Source: a virus
IMG/VR virus record: IMGVR_UViG_3300011115_000650
Reading direction: 5' to 3' (one strand)
Length of the DNA stretch: 64,000 bases
Within the stretch, counting starts at the first letter, position 1; each line of letters begins with the position of its first letter. This document shows, one piece after another, positions 6,642 through 51,602 of this stretch. The notes beneath the pieces were generated by a model. The model did not search any database. It was not told the origin of the DNA and worked only from the letters and a program-made list of their open reading frames with translations. Made by a program: the position numbers and the translations under genes.

Positions 6642-6998
6642 CTAGTTATGTATTAGTGTATTTGTTGTTAATAAGTCTCTCAATTCGTAGTATATGTCCA
6701 TGCTTGGATCGATATAAATTACCTCTCCTGCTTTATATAATACAGGTACTCCTTGACGGAGTATTCGGGCATCTTCTAAGAAAGTAAACTTACGGGTACC
6801 TGTAAAGACGAATAGGTCTTGAGATAGGTGTTTATAAGGGACTATATTGTTTAGTTTCCTTCGTCTTCTATCACAACCACAATCCTCCTTACCTCTCAAT
6901 CTGGCGATAAACGTAGCTAGTTTATCCAGGCCAAAAAACTTGGTAAACTTAGCTACACTATCTCCTAGTCCTACTGCTTTAGTACTTCTTACTTCCAT
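6642..6998 (-). CDS. Conserved phage hypothetical protein (GLGD...DCGCxxRRxxLN)
   Basis: 118-aa ORF in operon with recognisable Cys motif. Confidence 0.65.
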   Translation of the reverse strand: MEVRSTKAVGLGDSVAKFTKFFGLDKLATFIARLRGKEDCGCDRRRRKLNNIVPYKHLSQDLFVFTGTRKFTFLEDARILRQGVPVLYKAGEVIYIDPSMDIYYELRDLLTTNTLIHN

Positions 6999-7698
6999 TT
7001 GCTAGTTCTATGTTTTTGTAGAACTCCGCTCTTGCAGAATCTTCATTTAGAAAGCATCCTGTCAACTTAGCTGTTTGCATTGATGCACCTTGATGTTTAA
7101 CACCTCTACACGATACACAGTTATGTGTTGCATTAATCATTACAGCTACTCCTAGGTTATCCTCACAGATCGTATTTACTGCATTGTGAATAGCTACAGT
7201 TAACTGCTCTTGTATAGCTCCTCTTCTTCCGAAGTGCTCTACAATACGGTTTAACTTAGATAGTCCTACTACCCTGCCGTGTTCACTAGGTACGTACGCT
7301 ATCGATACTGTTCCTGAGATAGTTTCAAGGTGATGACTACATACACTAGTTACTGGTATATTACTTTCTTGGACAATCCCAGAATATCCATCGCTTGGAA
7401 AGCTAGTAATTTCGTCCATCAGCTTATACCTACCTGCAAATTTATCTTTGACGTAAGCCTTAGCCACTCTCTTAGGTGTATTAGAACTATTTGGATCATT
7501 CTTCCAATCCACTCCTAGAGCGGTTAGGAAATTACCAAAATGTAGAGCAGCTTCTTCGATGATAGCCTCTTTATCTCCTTCTGTTAATTCACTCTTTCCC
7601 TCTTTTAGGTTATGAGCTAATTGCAGAGAGATGCCATTAGCATGACCGGGTTGAGCTATTTCTAGCTCATCGATTTTTATTTCTGTGTGTTTATTCAT
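6979..7698 (-). CDS. folE: GTP cyclohydrolase I
   Basis: TPKRVAK, SVCSHH, GLSKLNRIVE, QEQLT and HNCVSCRGV motifs. Confidence 0.95.
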   Translation of the reverse strand: MNKHTEIKIDELEIAQPGHANGISLQLAHNLKEGKSELTEGDKEAIIEEAALHFGNFLTALGVDWKNDPNSSNTPKRVAKAYVKDKFAGRYKLMDEITSFPSDGYSGIVQESNIPVTSVCSHHLETISGTVSIAYVPSEHGRVVGLSKLNRIVEHFGRRGAIQEQLTVAIHNAVNTICEDNLGVAVMINATHNCVSCRGVKHQGASMQTAKLTGCFLNEDSARAEFYKNIELANGSKKY

Positions 7699-7703
7699 AA
7701 TCT

Positions 7704-7734
7704 ATAATATATGGACTTTATTGCTGTTCTCCAA
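7704..7734 (-). promoter_or_regulatory. Bacteroidota-type promoter for folE
   Basis: TTG-N20-TATATTAT. Confidence 0.6.
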
Positions 7735-7888
7735 CTGCTTGTAATTCTTCTTGAGAAGGTTCCCAATTAAACTGTGATTCAGGCGGTAGCCCGTTTTTCT
7801 TCTTTTTTGCTTTTTGTACTCCGTAAATTAAACTACCTATACAGGTAGCTATAATTAGTACCACGATTGTTAATACTGTTGTTGTCAT
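7718..7888 (-). CDS. Small membrane protein (56 aa, not in ORF track)
   Basis: MTTTVLTIVVLIIATCIGSLIYGVQKAKKKK...EQQ*; fills the gap between genes. Confidence 0.65.
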   Translation of the reverse strand: MTTTVLTIVVLIIATCIGSLIYGVQKAKKKKNGLPPESQFNWEPSQEELQAVGEQQ

Positions 7889-7891
7889 AGA

Positions 7892-8278
7892 TTAGAAACT
7901 TAAGGTGTAGATAATTCTGATTGAAATTGATTGGGGGTCGTATTTTGATATCTCAGCATCTTTAGCTACTTGAAAATCTAAAGAAGAACCGTTTTTGGTT
8001 TGTACCCATAGTTCTTTAATGAATTTGGTATCTGTAATTTCATTTTTCTCGTTACGGATTAATTCAAATACCGCTACTTTTGTTTGTGTTACTGTCATTT
8101 TGTTTGTGTTTAAATTTAATGTTGTTCCTGTTGTTACATATCCTTGAAAACTGCTAGTATCGAACCACTTTGTAGTCATGTCTAAGTATGTTACGACTGG
8201 TGTTGCTGTAAGAGTTCCACCGTTTGCTACATATGCACCTAGCGAAGTTAGAGCAGGTCCTGTTGTTGATGTATTCAT
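7892..8278 (-). CDS. Hypothetical protein
   Basis: 128-aa ORF tightly packed in operon; alternative start at MTVTQ. Confidence 0.6.
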   Translation of the reverse strand: MNTSTTGPALTSLGAYVANGGTLTATPVVTYLDMTTKWFDTSSFQGYVTTGTTLNLNTNKMTVTQTKVAVFELIRNEKNEITDTKFIKELWVQTKNGSSLDFQVAKDAEISKYDPQSISIRIIYTLSF

Positions 8279-8288
8279 TATTATTTAT

Positions 8289-8567
8289 TTAGTTATCTAA
8301 TAAATTTCTCCATCTCTTTTGAGTTTCCCATGGATTACTCACATACTCGTTTATTTCTTTCATAGCCGATTCTGTAGTTTCAAAAGCTATTGATTTACAT
8401 CCTACATTAACAGTACACCCTCTACTAAGGAATCTTACTGTAATTTCGTACTCCTGTAATACTTCTTGTTTACTTCGTCTATACTCTTTTTTATCTGGGT
8501 AGCATTCTTCTACCGGTATTGGCGGTATTTCAACGTCTAATGGTGCTAATTTGTCAAAGCTTGGCAT
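8289..8567 (-). CDS. Hypothetical protein
   Basis: 92 aa; FLSRGCTVNVGCKSIAF motif. Confidence 0.65.
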   Translation of the reverse strand: MPSFDKLAPLDVEIPPIPVEECYPDKKEYRRSKQEVLQEYEITVRFLSRGCTVNVGCKSIAFETTESAMKEINEYVSNPWETQKRWRNLLDN

Positions 8568-8597: not shown

Positions 8598-8699
8598 TTA
8601 TCCTAGTCCAAAGACTACATGTGCAAATAGTAAACCTAGTATACTACTTACTACTATTATACCTATTTCAAATAAGGTATCTTTTGTTTTCTGTGTCAT
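8598..8699 (-). CDS. Small membrane protein (33 aa, not in ORF track)
   Basis: MTQKTKDTLFEIGIIVVSSILGLLFAHVVFGLG*; ATG sits in the last cassette repeat. Confidence 0.55.
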   Translation of the reverse strand: MTQKTKDTLFEIGIIVVSSILGLLFAHVVFGLG

Positions 8700-8700
8700 G

Positions 8701-8895
8701 TTATGTATTTAATGTTTTACCGTACTTTTTTAGAATGTATTGTAGTTTAGACATTCCTTTGCTTAATCCTTCTACTGTAGGTACTTCTTCATCATACATG
8801 GTTAGTCCTTCTACAATTACGGACTCTGCTTCTACACAATCAAAGCAAAATCCCATTCTTAGCTCTTTTTCTCTATTGCAGCATTTACATTTCAT
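8701..8895 (-). CDS. Small Zn-finger-like cassette protein
   Basis: CKCC...FCFDC; ends KTLNT* inside the repeat. Confidence 0.65.
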   Translation of the reverse strand: MKCKCCNREKELRMGFCFDCVEAESVIVEGLTMYDEEVPTVEGLSKGMSKLQYILKKYGKTLNT

Positions 8896-8898
8896 AAT

Positions 8899-9105
8899 TT
8901 ATACGTTTAATGTTTTATTCCATATTGTACTAAATACAAATGTGTTTCCCTCTTGTCCCTTTCCCGAAATATTCATTCTTTTATTGGTATTTTCACATAC
9001 AACATATTCGATGCCCTTTGAGTCTAGTTTACCAGTGTAGTTTTGATGTGTTTTTCCGCATCTACCGCAGTTATCTGTTTTCCACTTATTACTAGTCTTT
9101 TTCAT
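8899..9105 (-). CDS. Small Cys-containing cassette protein
   Basis: CGRCGKTH...VVC; ends WNKTLNV* inside the repeat. Confidence 0.65.
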   Translation of the reverse strand: MKKTSNKWKTDNCGRCGKTHQNYTGKLDSKGIEYVVCENTNKRMNISGKGQEGNTFVFSTIWNKTLNV

Positions 9106-9114
9106 ATTATGCGT

Positions 9115-9309
9115 TTAGTGTTTTATTAATAGATCTAATTCAATAATTTCTGGGTAGCCGTAGTAAGATTTTTTCTCTAGTATTTCTTTAACATATGATT
9201 CAGCATCTGCTTTATTAAAGAATACTTTAGCGTATTCAAAGTCATGCGGTTCGTACTCCATCTCTCCACATACTAAATAGCATTTCGGTTTAGGGATATC
9301 TAGTTCCAT
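9115..9309 (-). CDS. Small cassette protein
   Basis: 64 aa; YLV......KVF..K.DAE.Y pattern typical of small phage proteins. Confidence 0.65.
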   Translation of the reverse strand: MELDIPKPKCYLVCGEMEYEPHDFEYAKVFFNKADAESYVKEILEKKSYYGYPEIIELDLLIKH

Positions 9310-9326
9310 ATTATACGTTTAATGTT

Positions 9327-9587
9327 TTATACTTTTTCGTACGTTGCTTCGAATATGTCTGGTTTACATGGGTAGTACTCTCCTTTTATGCCTCTGATTA
9401 TATAATCGCCTATTGAAGCAACCATCTCTCCTTCTAGGGTTGGTATCTTTATACATGATTTACCATTATCATCTCTTGAAACTTTAAAATGTGATACTTC
9501 ATTAATTGAAAATTCATCAAGACATCTGAAGTTTCCATCGTACTGTACCGCTTCAATTACTACTGGTTTTTTTCTGTATTGTGCCAT
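9327..9587 (-). CDS. Widespread small phage protein (YRKKPVVIEA / TLEG / GDYII / YPCKPDIF family); possible nucleotide-signal sponge
   Basis: Strong family motif; sponge function is a recollection-based inference only. Confidence 0.75.
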   Translation of the reverse strand: MAQYRKKPVVIEAVQYDGNFRCLDEFSINEVSHFKVSRDDNGKSCIKIPTLEGEMVASIGDYIIRGIKGEYYPCKPDIFEATYEKV

Positions 9588-9606
9588 ATTATACGTTTAG
9601 TGTTTT

Positions 9607-9702
9607 TTAACTAACTTTCTATTTTTTACTTCTATCGTGTATTGTTATTTCGATTCCTCCACAAAGAAATATGATTATTATTAATATTACGACTGCTACC
9701 AT
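9607..9702 (-). CDS. Small membrane cassette protein (31 aa, not in ORF track)
   Basis: MVAVVILIIIIFLCGGIEITIHDRSKNRKVS*; ATG 1 nt after the queE stop. Confidence 0.55.
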
Positions 9703-9703
9703 A

Positions 9704-10555
9704 TTATACGTTTAGTGTTTTATCCCAAGCGGATATATGTAATCTTGTTAAGCCTCTAAATCTATACTTCTTAGCCATCTCTAATACGAATTGAGTACGC
9801 TCATGGAAGTCAGTTTGACTATCTAGTCCCGGCATACAAACCACGTTGGTAAGAGGTATGCGATATGGTACGATAAAGTCACGGAATACTTCCTTAACAT
9901 CATCTTCAGTTGAAATAACGAACTTAAATTGATAGTTATCATGCTCCATAATACGTTTAATAGCGTCTGGATTGATACGTTGTTTCTCAGTCATACCTGA
10001 GTTGGATAGCTTTGGTGAGCAGTTGATTTGACTTAACCAACTAAATAACTCATCTTCAATTACTATAGTACCGTTAGTTTCTATTTCATGGTACGGTATA
10101 CATTCTTCAGTACTACCTGGTTGTTTTAATTCCCAATTACTCCAATACTCTAAAAAATTAACAATCGCCTCTTGATGTCCTTTAATTGTAGGTTCACCAC
10201 CAGTCCAAATAATGTGGATAGTACCATCTAGAATATCTTCATAGATACCTTGTTCCTTCCATTGATCAATCAGATATTGAAACTCCTTATCTTCACCTCT
10301 CCATAACCATTGTGATGTTGAATCACAGGTCCAGGTTGCTTTACCTTCAGCATGTAAATCACCGACGAATATCTCTCCGTCTTCTAGTTTTTCTTCTTTA
10401 GCTAATTGATTAGTAAACTTACGACTCATACCACAGGTTAGGTTGCATATACCTAATCTAACGAAATAAGACGGTACACCGCTACTTATTCCCTCTCCTT
10501 GGACTGAATAGAAGTCTGAGCTAATCAATAACTTGTTTGGATCTATTTTACTCAT
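9704..10555 (-). CDS. queE: 7-carboxy-7-deazaguanine synthase (radical SAM)
   Basis: FYSVQGEG..SGVPSYFVRLGICNLTC...CDS, TGGEP, IETNGT, CSPKL. Confidence 0.93.
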   Translation of the reverse strand: MSKIDPNKLLISSDFYSVQGEGISSGVPSYFVRLGICNLTCGMSRKFTNQLAKEEKLEDGEIFVGDLHAEGKATWTCDSTSQWLWRGEDKEFQYLIDQWKEQGIYEDILDGTIHIIWTGGEPTIKGHQEAIVNFLEYWSNWELKQPGSTEECIPYHEIETNGTIVIEDELFSWLSQINCSPKLSNSGMTEKQRINPDAIKRIMEHDNYQFKFVISTEDDVKEVFRDFIVPYRIPLTNVVCMPGLDSQTDFHERTQFVLEMAKKYRFRGLTRLHISAWDKTLNV

Positions 10556-10841: not shown

Positions 10842-10991
10842 TTATTTTTTTACTACTTCTTTAGCAGGATTTGTGGCTGCTTTCCATTCAGATTTAGATA
10901 CGTACTCCCACTGAGTACCTATCATTTGATGGGCTTGTTGGTCAGATACTCTGACGATGTTTGATGTTTTTCTGTTCTTTAGACACTTCAT
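10842..10991 (-). CDS. Small conserved phage protein (49 aa, not in ORF track)
   Basis: MKCLKNRKTSNIVRVSDQQAHQMIGTQWEYVSKSEWKAA...; GGAGGT 6 nt upstream. Confidence 0.7.
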   Translation of the reverse strand: MKCLKNRKTSNIVRVSDQQAHQMIGTQWEYVSKSEWKAATNPAKEVVKK

Positions 10992-11031
10992 AGTTTTACC
11001 TCCATGTTTTTATTGTTAGTTAATATAAGGA

Positions 11032-17163: not shown

Positions 17164-17739
17164 TTATGCTTTTTGTTTAAATCTTCCAATAAATCGACCG
17201 TGTATTTTTTCATGGCATTCTACACAAACTGCTTTACCGTTCTCAACACTAAAAGCTTTACTTAAATCTTCACTTATTGGAACTATGTGATGAGCATGTA
17301 AGTAACTTTTTGCACCACAGTCTTGACAGGTGTAATTATCTCTCTTAAAAACTTCCTGCCTCCACTCTTTCATTTTAGGGTCATTCCTCTTTTTTTGATT
17401 AGCACCCGTTTTACCTCCTTTCCAGTTATTATTTGCAGGACCTGTTTGATTACGTCCATATGCAGGATTGTCTTTTCCTTTCTTAAATTGAGTTTGTTTT
17501 GCTTTTTCCGATACTTTTAAAGCTTTTGAGAGATTTGCTTTATGTGATTCTGATTTAGGTTTTCCAGTTAATGCTAGAGATAGTTTCTCTCTCATTCCTG
17601 GAGTACATCTTTTCTCTACAGTGCTCTTATTAGCACACTTCTTACTACAGTATTCTCTTTTTAAATAATTCTCTTTTGATGTTCTAGTCGTATTTTCGAA
17701 TTCAGCTCCACACACTTTACACGTAGGTTTCATAGTCAC
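17164..17739 (-). CDS. HNH homing endonuclease (Zn finger + NUMOD3-like + C-terminal HNH)
   Basis: VFKRDNYTCQDCG...LHAHHI...NGKAVCVECHEKIH; KPKSESHKANLS; NNNWKGG. Confidence 0.9.
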   Translation of the reverse strand: MTMKPTCKVCGAEFENTTRTSKENYLKREYCSKKCANKSTVEKRCTPGMREKLSLALTGKPKSESHKANLSKALKVSEKAKQTQFKKGKDNPAYGRNQTGPANNNWKGGKTGANQKKRNDPKMKEWRQEVFKRDNYTCQDCGAKSYLHAHHIVPISEDLSKAFSVENGKAVCVECHEKIHGRFIGRFKQKA

Positions 17740-17741
17740 TC

Positions 17742-30786: not shown

Positions 30787-30845
30787 TTTGATGTTATCTG
30801 ATTTATAATAAATAGTCTGGTTTATGCAAAAAAAAAAGTTTTTAC

Positions 30846-51551: not shown

Positions 51552-51602
51552 ACAACACTCTATGATTTATTATAAATAGTTTAGATCTTAAGTATATAAC
51601 AT

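What the first reader, a model, noticed from the sequence alone, without database searches (positions are those of the whole stretch)
8697..9723. Integron-like gene-cassette array built from copies of the queE stop/restart junction
Seen: the queE 3' end (AAA ACA CTA AAC GTA TAA T ATG = KTLNV*, then the next start) recurs six times, at 9700, 9585, 9307, 9103, 8893 and 8697. Each interval (115, 278, 204, 210, 196 bp) holds exactly one unrelated small ORF whose ATG is supplied by the repeat. Two ORFs end in the repeat's own KTLNV*/KTLNT*, one stops inside it in another frame, and two stop at its edge. The copy next to queE matches it over the 22-bp core; the most distal copy is the most degenerate. 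Inference: single-gene units are repeatedly inserted at the queE terminus, each regenerating the site and becoming translationally coupled, as in an integron or polarised array. No integrase is in the window, so the catalyst is elsewhere or is UvsX acting on microhomology.
Basis: partly seen in the sequence, partly recalled or inferred. Interest (0 to 1): 0.88.

Follow-up and report, generated by a model that had tools for sequence, protein, structure and literature searches.

The report
queE-tail linker joining swappable phage gene cassettes
An uncultured freshwater T4-like phage has copied the last 18-22 bases of its queE gene six times. Related phages gain, lose and swap single small genes exactly at these copies, and in some of them homing-endonuclease genes sit in the same slot, so this is recombination at a short linker and not an integron.

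Summary
Six same-strand copies of AAAACAYTAAACGTATAA(T)ATG lie at window 9721-8697, starting with the queE stop. They occur nowhere else in the 64 kb, and each supplies the ATG of one small unrelated ORF.

Across about 130 IMG/VR loci of relatives (QueE 75-85% identical), the queE-folE gap runs from 50 bp to 4.6 kb and holds 1-6 copies. Homology between genomes switches exactly at the motif. Two pairs differ by a clean 190-bp indel of one ORF plus one repeat. A 309-bp block beginning at copy 3 is 97.7% identical to a phage whose queE is only 75.6% identical.

The integron reading fails. Five complete relatives have no tyrosine or serine recombinase, and the repeats form no hairpin.

Seven relatives carry a homing-endonuclease gene, from three families, in this slot. 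In each, queE has a recoded end; in five or six the old tail follows the endonuclease gene.

Best reading: the queE tail is a stop/restart linker and recombination landing pad. Breaks made by homing endonucleases probably stimulate exchange there, but that step is inferred.

It is a new variant of known phage boundary linkers (PeSL-like). This scan has reported similar junction linkers in other phages.

The parts
9704..10555 (-). queE (283 aa, QueE-like radical SAM). Its last six codons plus the stop (KTLNV*) are the master copy of the repeat.
   Evidence: ORF; phrog_2076, E 2.7e-38; same queD-queE-small genes-folE order in Flavobacterium phage immuto.
9700..9721 (-). Repeat copy 1: the queE tail plus the ATG of cassette 1.
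   Evidence: 0 mismatches.
9619..9702 (-). Cassette 1: 27-aa hydrophobic ORF. It stops 12 nt before copy 2.
   Evidence: unique among the 80 relatives.
9585..9606 (-). Repeat copy 2 (non-coding here).
   Evidence: 0 mismatches; it shares the rarer C variant with copy 1.
9327..9587 (-). Cassette 2: 86-aa ORF of a widespread phage family of unknown function.
   Evidence: phrog_419, E 1.7e-36; 69.9-78.9% nucleotide matches in Clostridium, Streptococcus, Acinetobacter, Erwinia, Bacillus and Staphylococcus phages.
9307..9328 (-). Repeat copy 3. It is the left breakpoint of a block 97.7% identical to L106.
9115..9309 (-). Cassette 3: 64-aa ORF, shared with L106 with 60 of 64 codons identical.
   Evidence: weak DUF7336 hit below the cut-off.
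9103..9124 (-). Repeat copy 4. The stop of cassette 3 lies inside it, in another frame.
8899..9105 (-). Cassette 4: 68-aa ORF with a C-x2-C pair. It ends WNKTLNV*, so its repeat extends into the queE TGGAAT codons.
8893..8916 (-). Repeat copy 5 (18-nt core intact, TAAATTATG spacer).
8701..8895 (-). Cassette 5: 64-aa ORF with a CxxC...CxxC motif. A homologue is the second cassette in L090. It ends GKTLNT*.
8697..8718 (-). Repeat copy 6 (degenerate: AAAACATTAAATACATAACATG).
8598..8699 (-). 33-aa hydrophobic ORF started by copy 6. It is the last unit of the array.
7718..8567 (-). Three further variable ORFs of the hyperplastic gap (92, 128 and 56 aa), without the repeat.
6979..7698 (-). folE (GTP cyclohydrolase I), the conserved far border of the variable gap.
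25803..26876 (-). RecA/UvsX-like recombinase gene (357 aa), the likely strand-exchange enzyme for recombination at the linker.
   Evidence: PF00154 hits in five complete relatives; 74.5% aa identity to the G001 copy; ORF.

Best explanation
The repeat is the last 18 nt of queE (AAAACATTAAACGTATAA, sometimes extended 5' into AAT or TGGAAT) plus the coupled start (T)ATG.

**What it does (two roles).**
1. It ends one reading frame and starts the next. It does this in an A-rich, G-poor, unstructured context with no Shine-Dalgarno sequence, like every other gene start of this phage. Any gene placed behind it is therefore expressed as part of the queE operon.
2. It is a short patch of identity shared by many co-circulating phages. 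Recombination there adds, removes or exchanges units of exactly one ORF plus one repeat, and regenerates the site each time. The route is either strand exchange by the phage's UvsX-like protein or annealing of a newly copied strand to the repeat.

**Why this site (inferred).** The queE terminus is a homing site. In relatives, endonuclease genes of three families sit exactly 5' of the motif behind a recoded queE end, and in most of them the old tail follows the endonuclease gene. Breaks made there in mixed infections would explain why recombination concentrates at this junction, and how the first tail duplications arose.

**Shown:** the repeat, the breakpoints at the repeat, and endonuclease genes occupying the slot next to recoded tails.

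**Inferred:** that these endonucleases cut at or near the motif, the repair route, and co-transcription and translational coupling of the cassettes.
For: **The repeat is real and local.**
- Six copies, against 0.01 expected by chance, on one strand only and at no other place in the window.
- In 80 related loci the core occurs 94 times on the queE strand and once on the other. Most copies are at the queE stop or within about 1.5 kb downstream; three of the 94 are weak 3-mismatch matches farther away.
- In five complete 160-175 kb relatives it occurs only at queE, in 1-2 copies, apart from one extra 2-mismatch match in G005.

**The gap is highly variable.**
- It spans 50 bp to 4.6 kb, with shuffled ORF families and 1-6 repeat copies.

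**Homology switches exactly at the motif.**
- 145 non-redundant contexts fall into 55 left-flank classes and 97 right-flank classes.
- Eight left classes other than queE have two right partners each.
- Fourteen right classes have 2-5 left partners.
- Clean 190-bp indels of one ORF plus one repeat separate L011 from L027 and L030 from L034. The flanks are near-identical, with only a few substitutions in about 130-160 aligned bases on each side.
- Window 9335-9027 is 97.7% identical to L106 from repeat copy 3 onward, while queE is only 75.6% identical.

**Cassettes travel with the repeat to other sites.**
- L032 carries a cassette pair homologous to the first two cassettes after queE in L091, but in a different gene neighbourhood with no queE in the locus; by my reckoning that is about 12 kb from queE.
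- L046 carries L129-type cassettes in a non-queE context.

**Homing-endonuclease genes in the slot.**
- phrog_559 HNH/homing endonuclease (E 1e-49 to 2e-64) in L057, L081, L100 and L126, with a related gene in L141.
- phrog_12324 intron-like/HNH endonuclease in L098.
- phrog_1035 endonuclease VII-like in L054.
- All seven loci whose upstream sequence is known have recoded queE tails: DRVINV*, NQVLNK*, DRTLDV*, or synonymous recoding.
- Six of the 15 loci whose tail has 4 or more mismatches carry such a gene, against none found among the 66 with 3 or fewer. That count rests on a PHROG or Pfam screen of only part of the downstream ORFs.
- Pairs with and without the gene (L126 vs L079, L054 vs L066) place the insertion exactly 5' of the motif.

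**Recombination machinery and start context.**
- A RecA/UvsX-like gene is present in the window and in relatives.
- None of 70 window genes has a Shine-Dalgarno-like sequence. Positions -20 to -2 are mostly 45-60% A, and position -1 is T in 61%.
- The repeats are no more structured than shuffled sequence.

**Precedents.**
- PeSL shuffling in T4-type phages (PMC2839356, PMC4122927).
- SegB-dependent, UvsX/UvsY-dependent segmental amplification in phage T6 (PMC13096335).
Against: - The window itself has no endonuclease gene at queE and no homologue of the three families.
- No cleavage site is known for any of them.
- One endonuclease-bearing contig (L142) keeps two perfect motif copies downstream. 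The 18-mer alone is therefore probably not the whole target.
- Most relatives have many gap ORFs but only the one repeat at queE. Much of the gap's variability does not use the linker.
- 18-22 bp is short for efficient RecA-type exchange.
- Synonymous sites of the queE tail are only mildly more conserved than the gene average. There is no strong sign of selection on the DNA sequence itself.
- No reads could be examined for circles or deletion variants.
Confidence: 0.7

Rival explanations
1. Passive scars only. Each repeat is a stranded old queE end, left when a mobile element (an endonuclease gene or its decayed remnant) inserted with its own replacement gene end. The copies play no later part in recombination or expression.
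For: Endonuclease elements create exactly this tail/gene/tail architecture. L109-L112 and L097 show a recoded tail followed by a stranded old tail with no gene between them. Other first-stage notes on this genome describe similar stranded gene ends at thyA and queC (I did not test them).
Against: The same small cassette, with identical boundaries, sits behind different left partners, and the reverse also holds. One-cassette indels are precise. Most internal copies match the consensus at 0-1 positions even between genomes whose queE is about 24% diverged. None of the window's cassette ORFs matches an endonuclease family in PHROGs or Pfam.
Confidence: 0.15
2. A true integron-like system. A dedicated site-specific recombinase, encoded elsewhere, recognises the 22-mer as an attI/attC-type site and inserts circular cassettes at the queE-proximal copy.
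For: Single-gene, same-orientation units with no predicted promoter. The site is regenerated at each insertion. The distal copy is the most degenerate in the two longest arrays.
Against: Five complete relatives have no PF00589 or PF00239 recombinase, while the control genomes were detected. The repeats have no inverted-repeat or hairpin structure. An insertion occurs at an internal copy, and cassette rank varies between genomes. The site is 18-22 nt long and lies inside coding sequence.
Confidence: 0.03
3. A purely translational or regulatory signal. The motif recurs because it is a favoured stop/restart initiation region, selected independently in front of each small gene, and it has no role in gene movement.
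For: It fits the phage's A-rich, G-poor start context with T at -1 and no Shine-Dalgarno sequence. It is unstructured. It always lies directly before an ATG on the coding strand.
Against: None of the roughly 64 other predicted gene starts in the window carries it, and it is essentially absent from the rest of five complete genomes. Convergence on 18 identical bases is implausible. Some copies extend into the queE codons TGGAAT. Homology breakpoints coincide with it.
Confidence: 0.05
4. An artefact: metagenome mis-assembly at a short repeat, or chance similarity in AT-rich DNA.
For: The window and its relatives are metagenome-assembled contigs. By my own rough estimate, the exact 22-mer would give about ten chance hits across the whole collection.
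Against: The repeat is shorter than typical assembly k-mers. Identical junctions recur in contigs from different samples (L011/L030/L048; window and L002). Chance expectation in the window is 0.01. 41 of the 49 exact hits in IMG/VR lie next to a queE gene.
Confidence: 0.02

Closest known systems
PeSL (promoter-early stem-loop) mobile regulatory cassettes of T4-type phages (Arbiol et al. 2010, PMC2839356; Comeau et al. 2014, PMC4122927)
   Same: A short conserved motif flanks small ORFs of unknown function in the hyperplastic region of a T4-like genome. Indels and replacements between relatives have their ends in the motif. Recombination between motifs is the proposed mechanism, and it regenerates the site.
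   Different: A PeSL spans about 100 bp. It carries a sigma-70 -35/-10 promoter, a G+C stem-loop terminator and a Shine-Dalgarno sequence, and about 50 copies are spread over each genome. Here the motif is 18-22 nt with no -35 box, stem-loop or Shine-Dalgarno sequence. It occurs at one locus only and is the 3' end of a conserved coding gene. It joins genes by stop/restart within one operon instead of making separate transcription units.
Short conserved boundary ('linker') sequences of the modular theory of phage evolution. PMC3029335 describes the mycobacteriophage Island3 case, where gene 68 shares about 50 bp of its 3' end with the upstream gene 67.
   Same: Homologous recombination at a short sequence shared by otherwise unrelated genes. 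In the Island3 case, as here, the inserted gene carries the same C-terminal codons as the gene upstream.
   Different: The Island3 case is a single two-copy example. Here there is a six-copy array, dozens of cassette families, and many separate junction contexts across about 130 loci.
Free-standing homing endonucleases of T4-like phages (intronless homing, reviewed in PMC2988022), nuclease genes at boundaries of exchange (PMC10055350), and SegB-driven segmental amplification in T6 (PMC13096335)
   Same: Endonuclease genes sit beside a conserved gene, and the endonuclease-bearing allele has a recoded target. A double-strand break followed by UvsX/UvsY recombination can build tandem repeats at the locus.
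   Different: The window's array has no endonuclease gene. The units are unrelated single genes, not amplified copies of one segment. Cleavage at the queE tail is inferred, not shown.
Integrons (IntI, attI, attC cassettes), including those reported in phage genomes (PMC9892861, abstract only read)
   Same: An array of single-gene cassettes in one orientation, with no promoters predicted, behind a fixed anchor. The junction site is regenerated at each insertion.
   Different: There is no integrase, no attC hairpin and no strict insertion at the proximal site. The site is a coding-gene terminus of 18-22 nt.

Membership tests
Integron | Tyrosine recombinase (IntI) encoded with the array | tested here: not met
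   PF00589 is absent from five complete relatives while all 14 control genomes were detected. PF00239 is also absent. The window's own ORFs were not all scanned.
Integron | attC site: imperfect inverted repeats that fold into a hairpin on one strand | tested here: not met
   61-nt stretches around all six copies fold no better than shuffled sequence (z from -0.12 to +1.21). The repeat is only 18-22 nt.
Integron | Promoterless single-gene cassettes, one orientation, expressed from an upstream promoter | tested here: inconclusive
   All ORFs are on the queE strand with stop/start junctions. No sigma-70-type promoter or terminator is predicted inside 8600-9720 on that strand. That scan does not cover Bacteroidota or phage promoters, and no RNA data were available.
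Integron | Cassette gain and loss exactly at the recombination site | tested here: met
PeSL cassettes | Sigma-70-like -35/-10 early promoter inside the motif | tested here: not met
   No promoter-like site at any copy. Only a TATAAT-like hexamer ending one base before the ATG, with no -35 box.
PeSL cassettes | Stable stem-loop (terminator/attenuator) in the motif | tested here: not met
   no terminator-like site in the array on the coding strand.
PeSL cassettes | Tens of copies spread over the hyperplastic regions of the genome | tested here: not met
   One locus only in the 64-kb window. Five complete relatives have 1-2 copies each, all at queE, apart from one extra 2-mismatch match in G005.
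PeSL cassettes | Indels and replacements between relatives bounded by the motif | tested here: met
PeSL cassettes | Excised mini-circles carrying one motif | not testable with these tools
Conserved boundary/linker sequences (modular theory) | A short sequence shared at junctions of otherwise unrelated genes, with recombinant breakpoints inside it | tested here: met
   Sharp 18-nt identity with unrelated flanks; one-to-many partner relations on both sides; precise indels.
Free-standing homing endonuclease site (intronless homing) | Endonuclease gene inserted next to a conserved gene in some genomes and absent from the same site in close relatives | tested here: met
   L126 vs L079 and L054 vs L066; family assignments. 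This holds in relatives only; there is none in the window.
Free-standing homing endonuclease site (intronless homing) | Target sequence altered in the endonuclease-bearing allele | tested here: met
   All seven endonuclease-bearing loci with known upstream sequence have recoded queE tails (4-10 mismatches of 18 for the six scored; L141 ends DRTLDV*). No such gene was found among the 66 loci with 3 or fewer mismatches, on a partial screen of their downstream ORFs.
Free-standing homing endonuclease site (intronless homing) | Site-specific cleavage of the endonuclease-free allele | not testable with these tools
   This needs an in vitro cleavage assay or a cross.

The most novel reading that the evidence does not exclude
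The queE terminus is a landing pad serviced by homing endonucleases, working as an integrase-free analogue of attI/attC. [quoted passage not shown] The break is repaired by copying from a co-infecting genome. The newly made strand re-anneals on the 18-nt tail on the far side of the break. Whatever promoterless gene lies between two tails in the donor is therefore captured next to queE, the site is regenerated, and older cassettes are pushed distally. Small accessory genes would thus spread at the endonuclease's expense.
Probability: 0.3. Interest if true: 0.8.

Novelty: new variant of a known kind. Interest (0 to 1): 0.6.

Why it matters
Whether phage mosaicism arises from recombination at short shared linkers or from random illegitimate joining followed by selection is an old open question. 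Clear linker cases are few.

This is a clean natural case. It has one anchor gene, an 18-nt linker, dozens of cassette families and precise one-cassette indels. There is also evidence of recent transfer between phages whose core genes are about 24% diverged.

The linker is the coding end of a conserved DNA-modification gene, and homing-endonuclease genes use the same slot. That connects two lines of work usually treated separately, boundary linkers and endonuclease-driven exchange. It also gives a directly testable model for how small accessory genes, possibly anti-defence genes, spread among lytic phages of Bacteroidota.

Tried and rejected

- No whole genome is held for this window, so I used complete relatives instead.

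**Analyses that were weak or uninformative.**
- ORF-level neighbour discordance was noisy. Even junctions without the repeat were 43-78% discordant, because spurious small ORFs inflate the counts. In the bin with 90% or higher identity it pointed the expected way, 88-89% against 43-49%. I rely on the nucleotide-level flank classes and alignments instead.
- Synonymous-site entropy of the last six queE codons is only mildly below the gene average, and AAC/AAT is about 50:50. I dropped the idea of strong selection on the tail's DNA sequence.
- The sequence CCATATATTTATA found upstream of the endonuclease genes is not enriched in the window. I make no promoter claim.
- Distant relatives of the phrog_559 endonuclease lie in unrelated contexts without the motif.
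- The 86-aa cassette has no relative among solved structures. Pfam gave only sub-threshold hits for the cassettes.

**Ideas rejected.**
- A CRISPR-like reading (repeat duplicated on insertion, degenerate distal repeat). The 'spacers' are whole ORFs of 115-278 bp with homologues in other phages.
- Tandem duplication followed by divergence. The cassette ORFs are unrelated to one another.

**Negative comparison.** Flavobacterium phage immuto has the same gene order, but its queE ends QREV* without the motif.
Full report
**1. The observation**

Read on the minus strand, queE (window 9704-10555, 283 aa; phrog_2076 QueE-like radical SAM, E 2.7e-38) ends AAA ACA CTA AAC GTA TAA T ATG.

- The 22-mer recurs at 9585-9606 with 0 mismatches, and at 9307-9328 and 9103-9124 with 1 mismatch each. 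Degenerate copies lie at about 8893-8916 and 8697-8718.
- Shuffled sequence gives 0.01 matches. No other copy exists on either strand of the 64 kb. It is the only dispersed short-repeat array of this kind among the repeat families listed for the window.
- Each copy supplies the ATG of one small ORF: 27, 86, 64, 68, 64 and 33 aa.
- The upstream ORFs end in three ways: in the repeat's own frame (WNKTLNV*, GKTLNT*), inside it in another frame, or at or just before its edge.

**2. Context**

- The queD-queE-small genes-folE order is the same as in Flavobacterium phage vB_FspM_immuto, whose folE is 71% identical at nucleotide level. The immuto queE, however, ends QREV* without the motif.
- 69 of 70 predicted genes in the window lie on one strand, and none has a Shine-Dalgarno-like sequence. 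Positions -20 to -2 are mostly 45-60% A and poor in G, and position -1 is T in 61%. From general knowledge, this start context is typical of Bacteroidota and their phages.
- The repeat fits it: A-rich, T at -1, and no more structured than shuffled sequence.
- No sigma-70-type promoter or terminator is predicted inside the array on the coding strand. Co-transcription with queE is plausible but not shown.

**3. Relatives**

IMG/VR holds 236 loci encoding a QueE 75-85% identical to the window's. 80 were fetched, and 49 more loci carry the exact 22-mer.

- In the 80 loci, the 18-nt core occurs 94 times on the queE strand and once on the other. Most copies are at the queE stop or within about 1.5 kb downstream; three are weak 3-mismatch matches farther away.
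- Five complete genomes of 160-175 kb carry it only at queE, in one or two copies, apart from one extra 2-mismatch match. It is therefore not a genome-wide signal.
- The queE-folE gap runs from 50 bp with no ORF to 4.6 kb. It holds shuffled combinations of recurring small ORF families.
- Most loci have one repeat copy, about eight have two, four have three, L090 has five, and the window has six, the most seen.
- Cassette content in relatives includes an SmpB homologue and a phosphoribosyltransferase.
- The window's 86-aa cassette belongs to a widespread phage family of unknown function (phrog_419, E 1.7e-36).

**4. Recombination happens at the repeat**

- Internal copies have a sharp 18-nt identity (AAAACATTAAACGTATAA, then TATG) with unrelated flanks. 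Some extend into the preceding queE codons AAT or TGGAAT, which shows they derive from the queE end.
- The 145 non-redundant contexts contain 55 left-flank classes and 97 right-flank classes. Apart from queE, which has 56 right partners, eight left classes have two right partners each. Fourteen right classes have 2-5 left partners.
- The queE count alone only shows that a conserved gene borders a variable region. The internal copies are the informative ones.
- Two pairs differ by a clean 190-bp indel of one ORF plus one repeat: L011 vs L027, at an internal copy, and L030 vs L034, at the queE copy. Their flanks differ by only a few substitutions in about 130-160 aligned bases on each side.
- Window 9335-9027 is 97.7% identical to L106, while queE of the same two phages is 75.6% identical. 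The block covers copy 3, cassette 3, copy 4 and the start of cassette 4, and the similarity begins at copy 3. This points to recent lateral exchange with a breakpoint at the repeat.
- Cassettes also travel with the repeat to other sites. L032 has a cassette pair homologous to the first two cassettes after queE in L091, between other genes and with no queE in the locus; by my reckoning that is about 12 kb from queE. L046 has L129-type cassettes in a non-queE context.
- Of the 49 exact 22-mer hits in the whole collection, 41 are next to queE.

**5. It is not an integron**

- Five complete relatives have no tyrosine or serine recombinase, while the same searches detected them in control genomes.
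- The repeats have no hairpin.
- Insertion is not confined to the proximal copy.
- A RecA/UvsX-like gene is present in all five relatives and in the window at 25803-26876.

**6. Homing endonucleases use the same slot**

*Which genes.*
- In L057, L081, L100 and L126, the gene after queE belongs to phrog_559 (HNH/homing endonuclease, E 1e-49 to 2e-64). It has DUF723 and treble-clef zinc-finger repeats. L141 carries a related gene.
- L098 carries an intron-like/HNH endonuclease (phrog_12324, E 4e-26).
- L054 carries an endonuclease VII-like gene (phrog_1035, E 3e-13).

*Recoded tails.*
- In every one of these loci the queE end is recoded. It reads DRVINV*, NQVLNK* or DRTLDV*, or keeps the protein but changes 4-5 of 18 bases.
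- In L057, L081, L100, L126 and L054, the old tail follows the endonuclease gene directly and leads into the next gene's ATG. L141 keeps only a degenerate remnant of it, and L098 has no recognisable copy.
- Six of the 15 loci with 4 or more tail mismatches carry such a gene. None was found among the 66 with 3 or fewer. This rests on a family screen of only part of the downstream ORFs.

*Position of the insertion.*
- Pairs with and without the gene (L126 vs L079, L054 vs L066) place the insertion exactly 5' of AAAACATT. The insertion consists of the recoded tail, a spacer and the endonuclease gene.
- In L126 the stranded tail is also mutated, at 5 of 12 positions, amid nearly identical flanks.
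- L109-L112 and L097 have a recoded tail followed by an old tail with nothing between. They look like footprints of lost elements.

*Limits.*
- The window has no homologue of these endonucleases.
- L142 keeps two perfect motif copies behind its endonuclease gene. Any target must therefore include queE sequence to the left of the motif.

**7. Mechanism**

*Shown:* the repeat is a copy of the queE end, units of one ORF plus one repeat are gained, lost and exchanged at it, and endonuclease elements build the same tail/gene/tail architecture at the same point.

*Inferred:*
- In mixed infections the endonucleases break the queE/tail junction.
- Repair copies from a co-infecting genome. The new strand re-anneals on the 18-nt tail to the right of the break, so a donor cassette lying between two tails is captured and the site is regenerated.
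- Once several tails exist, UvsX-type exchange or single-strand annealing among them deletes and shuffles cassettes.
- The tail also gives each cassette a working stop/restart initiation region.

*Precedents:* recombination between PeSL motifs in T4-type phages (PMC2839356, PMC4122927), and SegB-dependent, UvsX/UvsY-dependent segmental amplification in T6 (PMC13096335).

*Weaknesses:*
- No cleavage data exist.
- 18-22 bp is short for strand exchange.
- Most gap variability in relatives does not involve the repeat.
- Synonymous sites of the tail are only mildly constrained.
- Reads could not be examined.

**8. Comparison and novelty**

The locus works like PeSL cassettes and like the boundary linkers of the modular theory. 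It fails the defining PeSL features of promoter, stem-loop and many genome-wide copies, and the defining integron features of integrase and attC.

The mycobacteriophage Island3 gene 68 case (PMC3029335) is the nearest single example. There, the inserted gene shares its 3' end with the upstream gene.

This scan has already reported stop/start junction linkers in other phages (e1-5666460, e1-5265734, e1-3447725, e1-3410815). The general phenomenon is therefore not new to it.

New here:
- the linker is the coding terminus of a conserved DNA-modification gene, which acts as a fixed anchor;
- it lacks a Shine-Dalgarno sequence;
- homing-endonuclease genes of three families occupy the same junction, next to recoded alleles.

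Verdict: new variant of a known kind, interest about 0.6.

Noticed in passing
window 9327-9587 (-): The 86-aa cassette (phrog_419/1810/4502, unknown function) has 69.9-78.9% nucleotide-level matches in phages of Clostridium, Streptococcus, Acinetobacter, Erwinia, Bacillus and Staphylococcus. That is an unusually wide spread for such a small gene. It has no relative among solved structures.
   Followed up: partly
L096:6810-7271; L109-L112 around 6874-7305: An SmpB homologue (PF01668, E 6.6e-49), the trans-translation factor. In L109-L112 it follows a stranded queE-tail copy; in L096 it overlaps the queE end.
   Followed up: no
L087:6833-6928, L117:6836-6931, L124:7025-7120 and others: A 31-aa hydrophobic ORF (MEELIIWGYV...RQINKLK*) recurs behind five different left partners. 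Downstream sequences also diverge right after its own stop/TATG, so it may act as a second portable junction.
   Followed up: partly
window 10881-10997: A 117-nt patch upstream of queE is 95.7% identical to L106, although queE itself is only 75.6% identical. This is another small mosaic piece.
   Followed up: no
L057, L081, L100, L126, L141, just upstream of the endonuclease ATG: A conserved sequence, CCATAT(AT)TTATA, precedes each phrog_559-type endonuclease gene and may be its promoter. It is not enriched in the window.
   Followed up: partly
window 17739-17759, 30796-30816, 51560-51580: Three copies of a 21-nt motif (reference copy CTCTTATTTATTATAAATAGT on the + strand; the other two are 86-90% identical to it). 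It may be a promoter-type signal.
   Followed up: no
window 18573-20949: Two genes built from 60-nt tandem units (15 overlapping copies detected). Other readers noted them as leucine-rich-repeat genes.
   Followed up: no
L036:2369-2390 (334-kb contig, 30% G+C); L049:1682-1703 (41% G+C): The exact 22-mer sits at a stop/start junction in two contigs with no detectable similarity to the window. In both, the upstream ORF ends ...KTLNV*. This could be chance or long-range transfer of the linker.
   Followed up: partly
L053:6931-7137 and cluster members: A recurring 68-aa cassette has a weak Smr-domain match (E 4e-4, below the cut-off). Smr domains are nicking nucleases.
   Followed up: no
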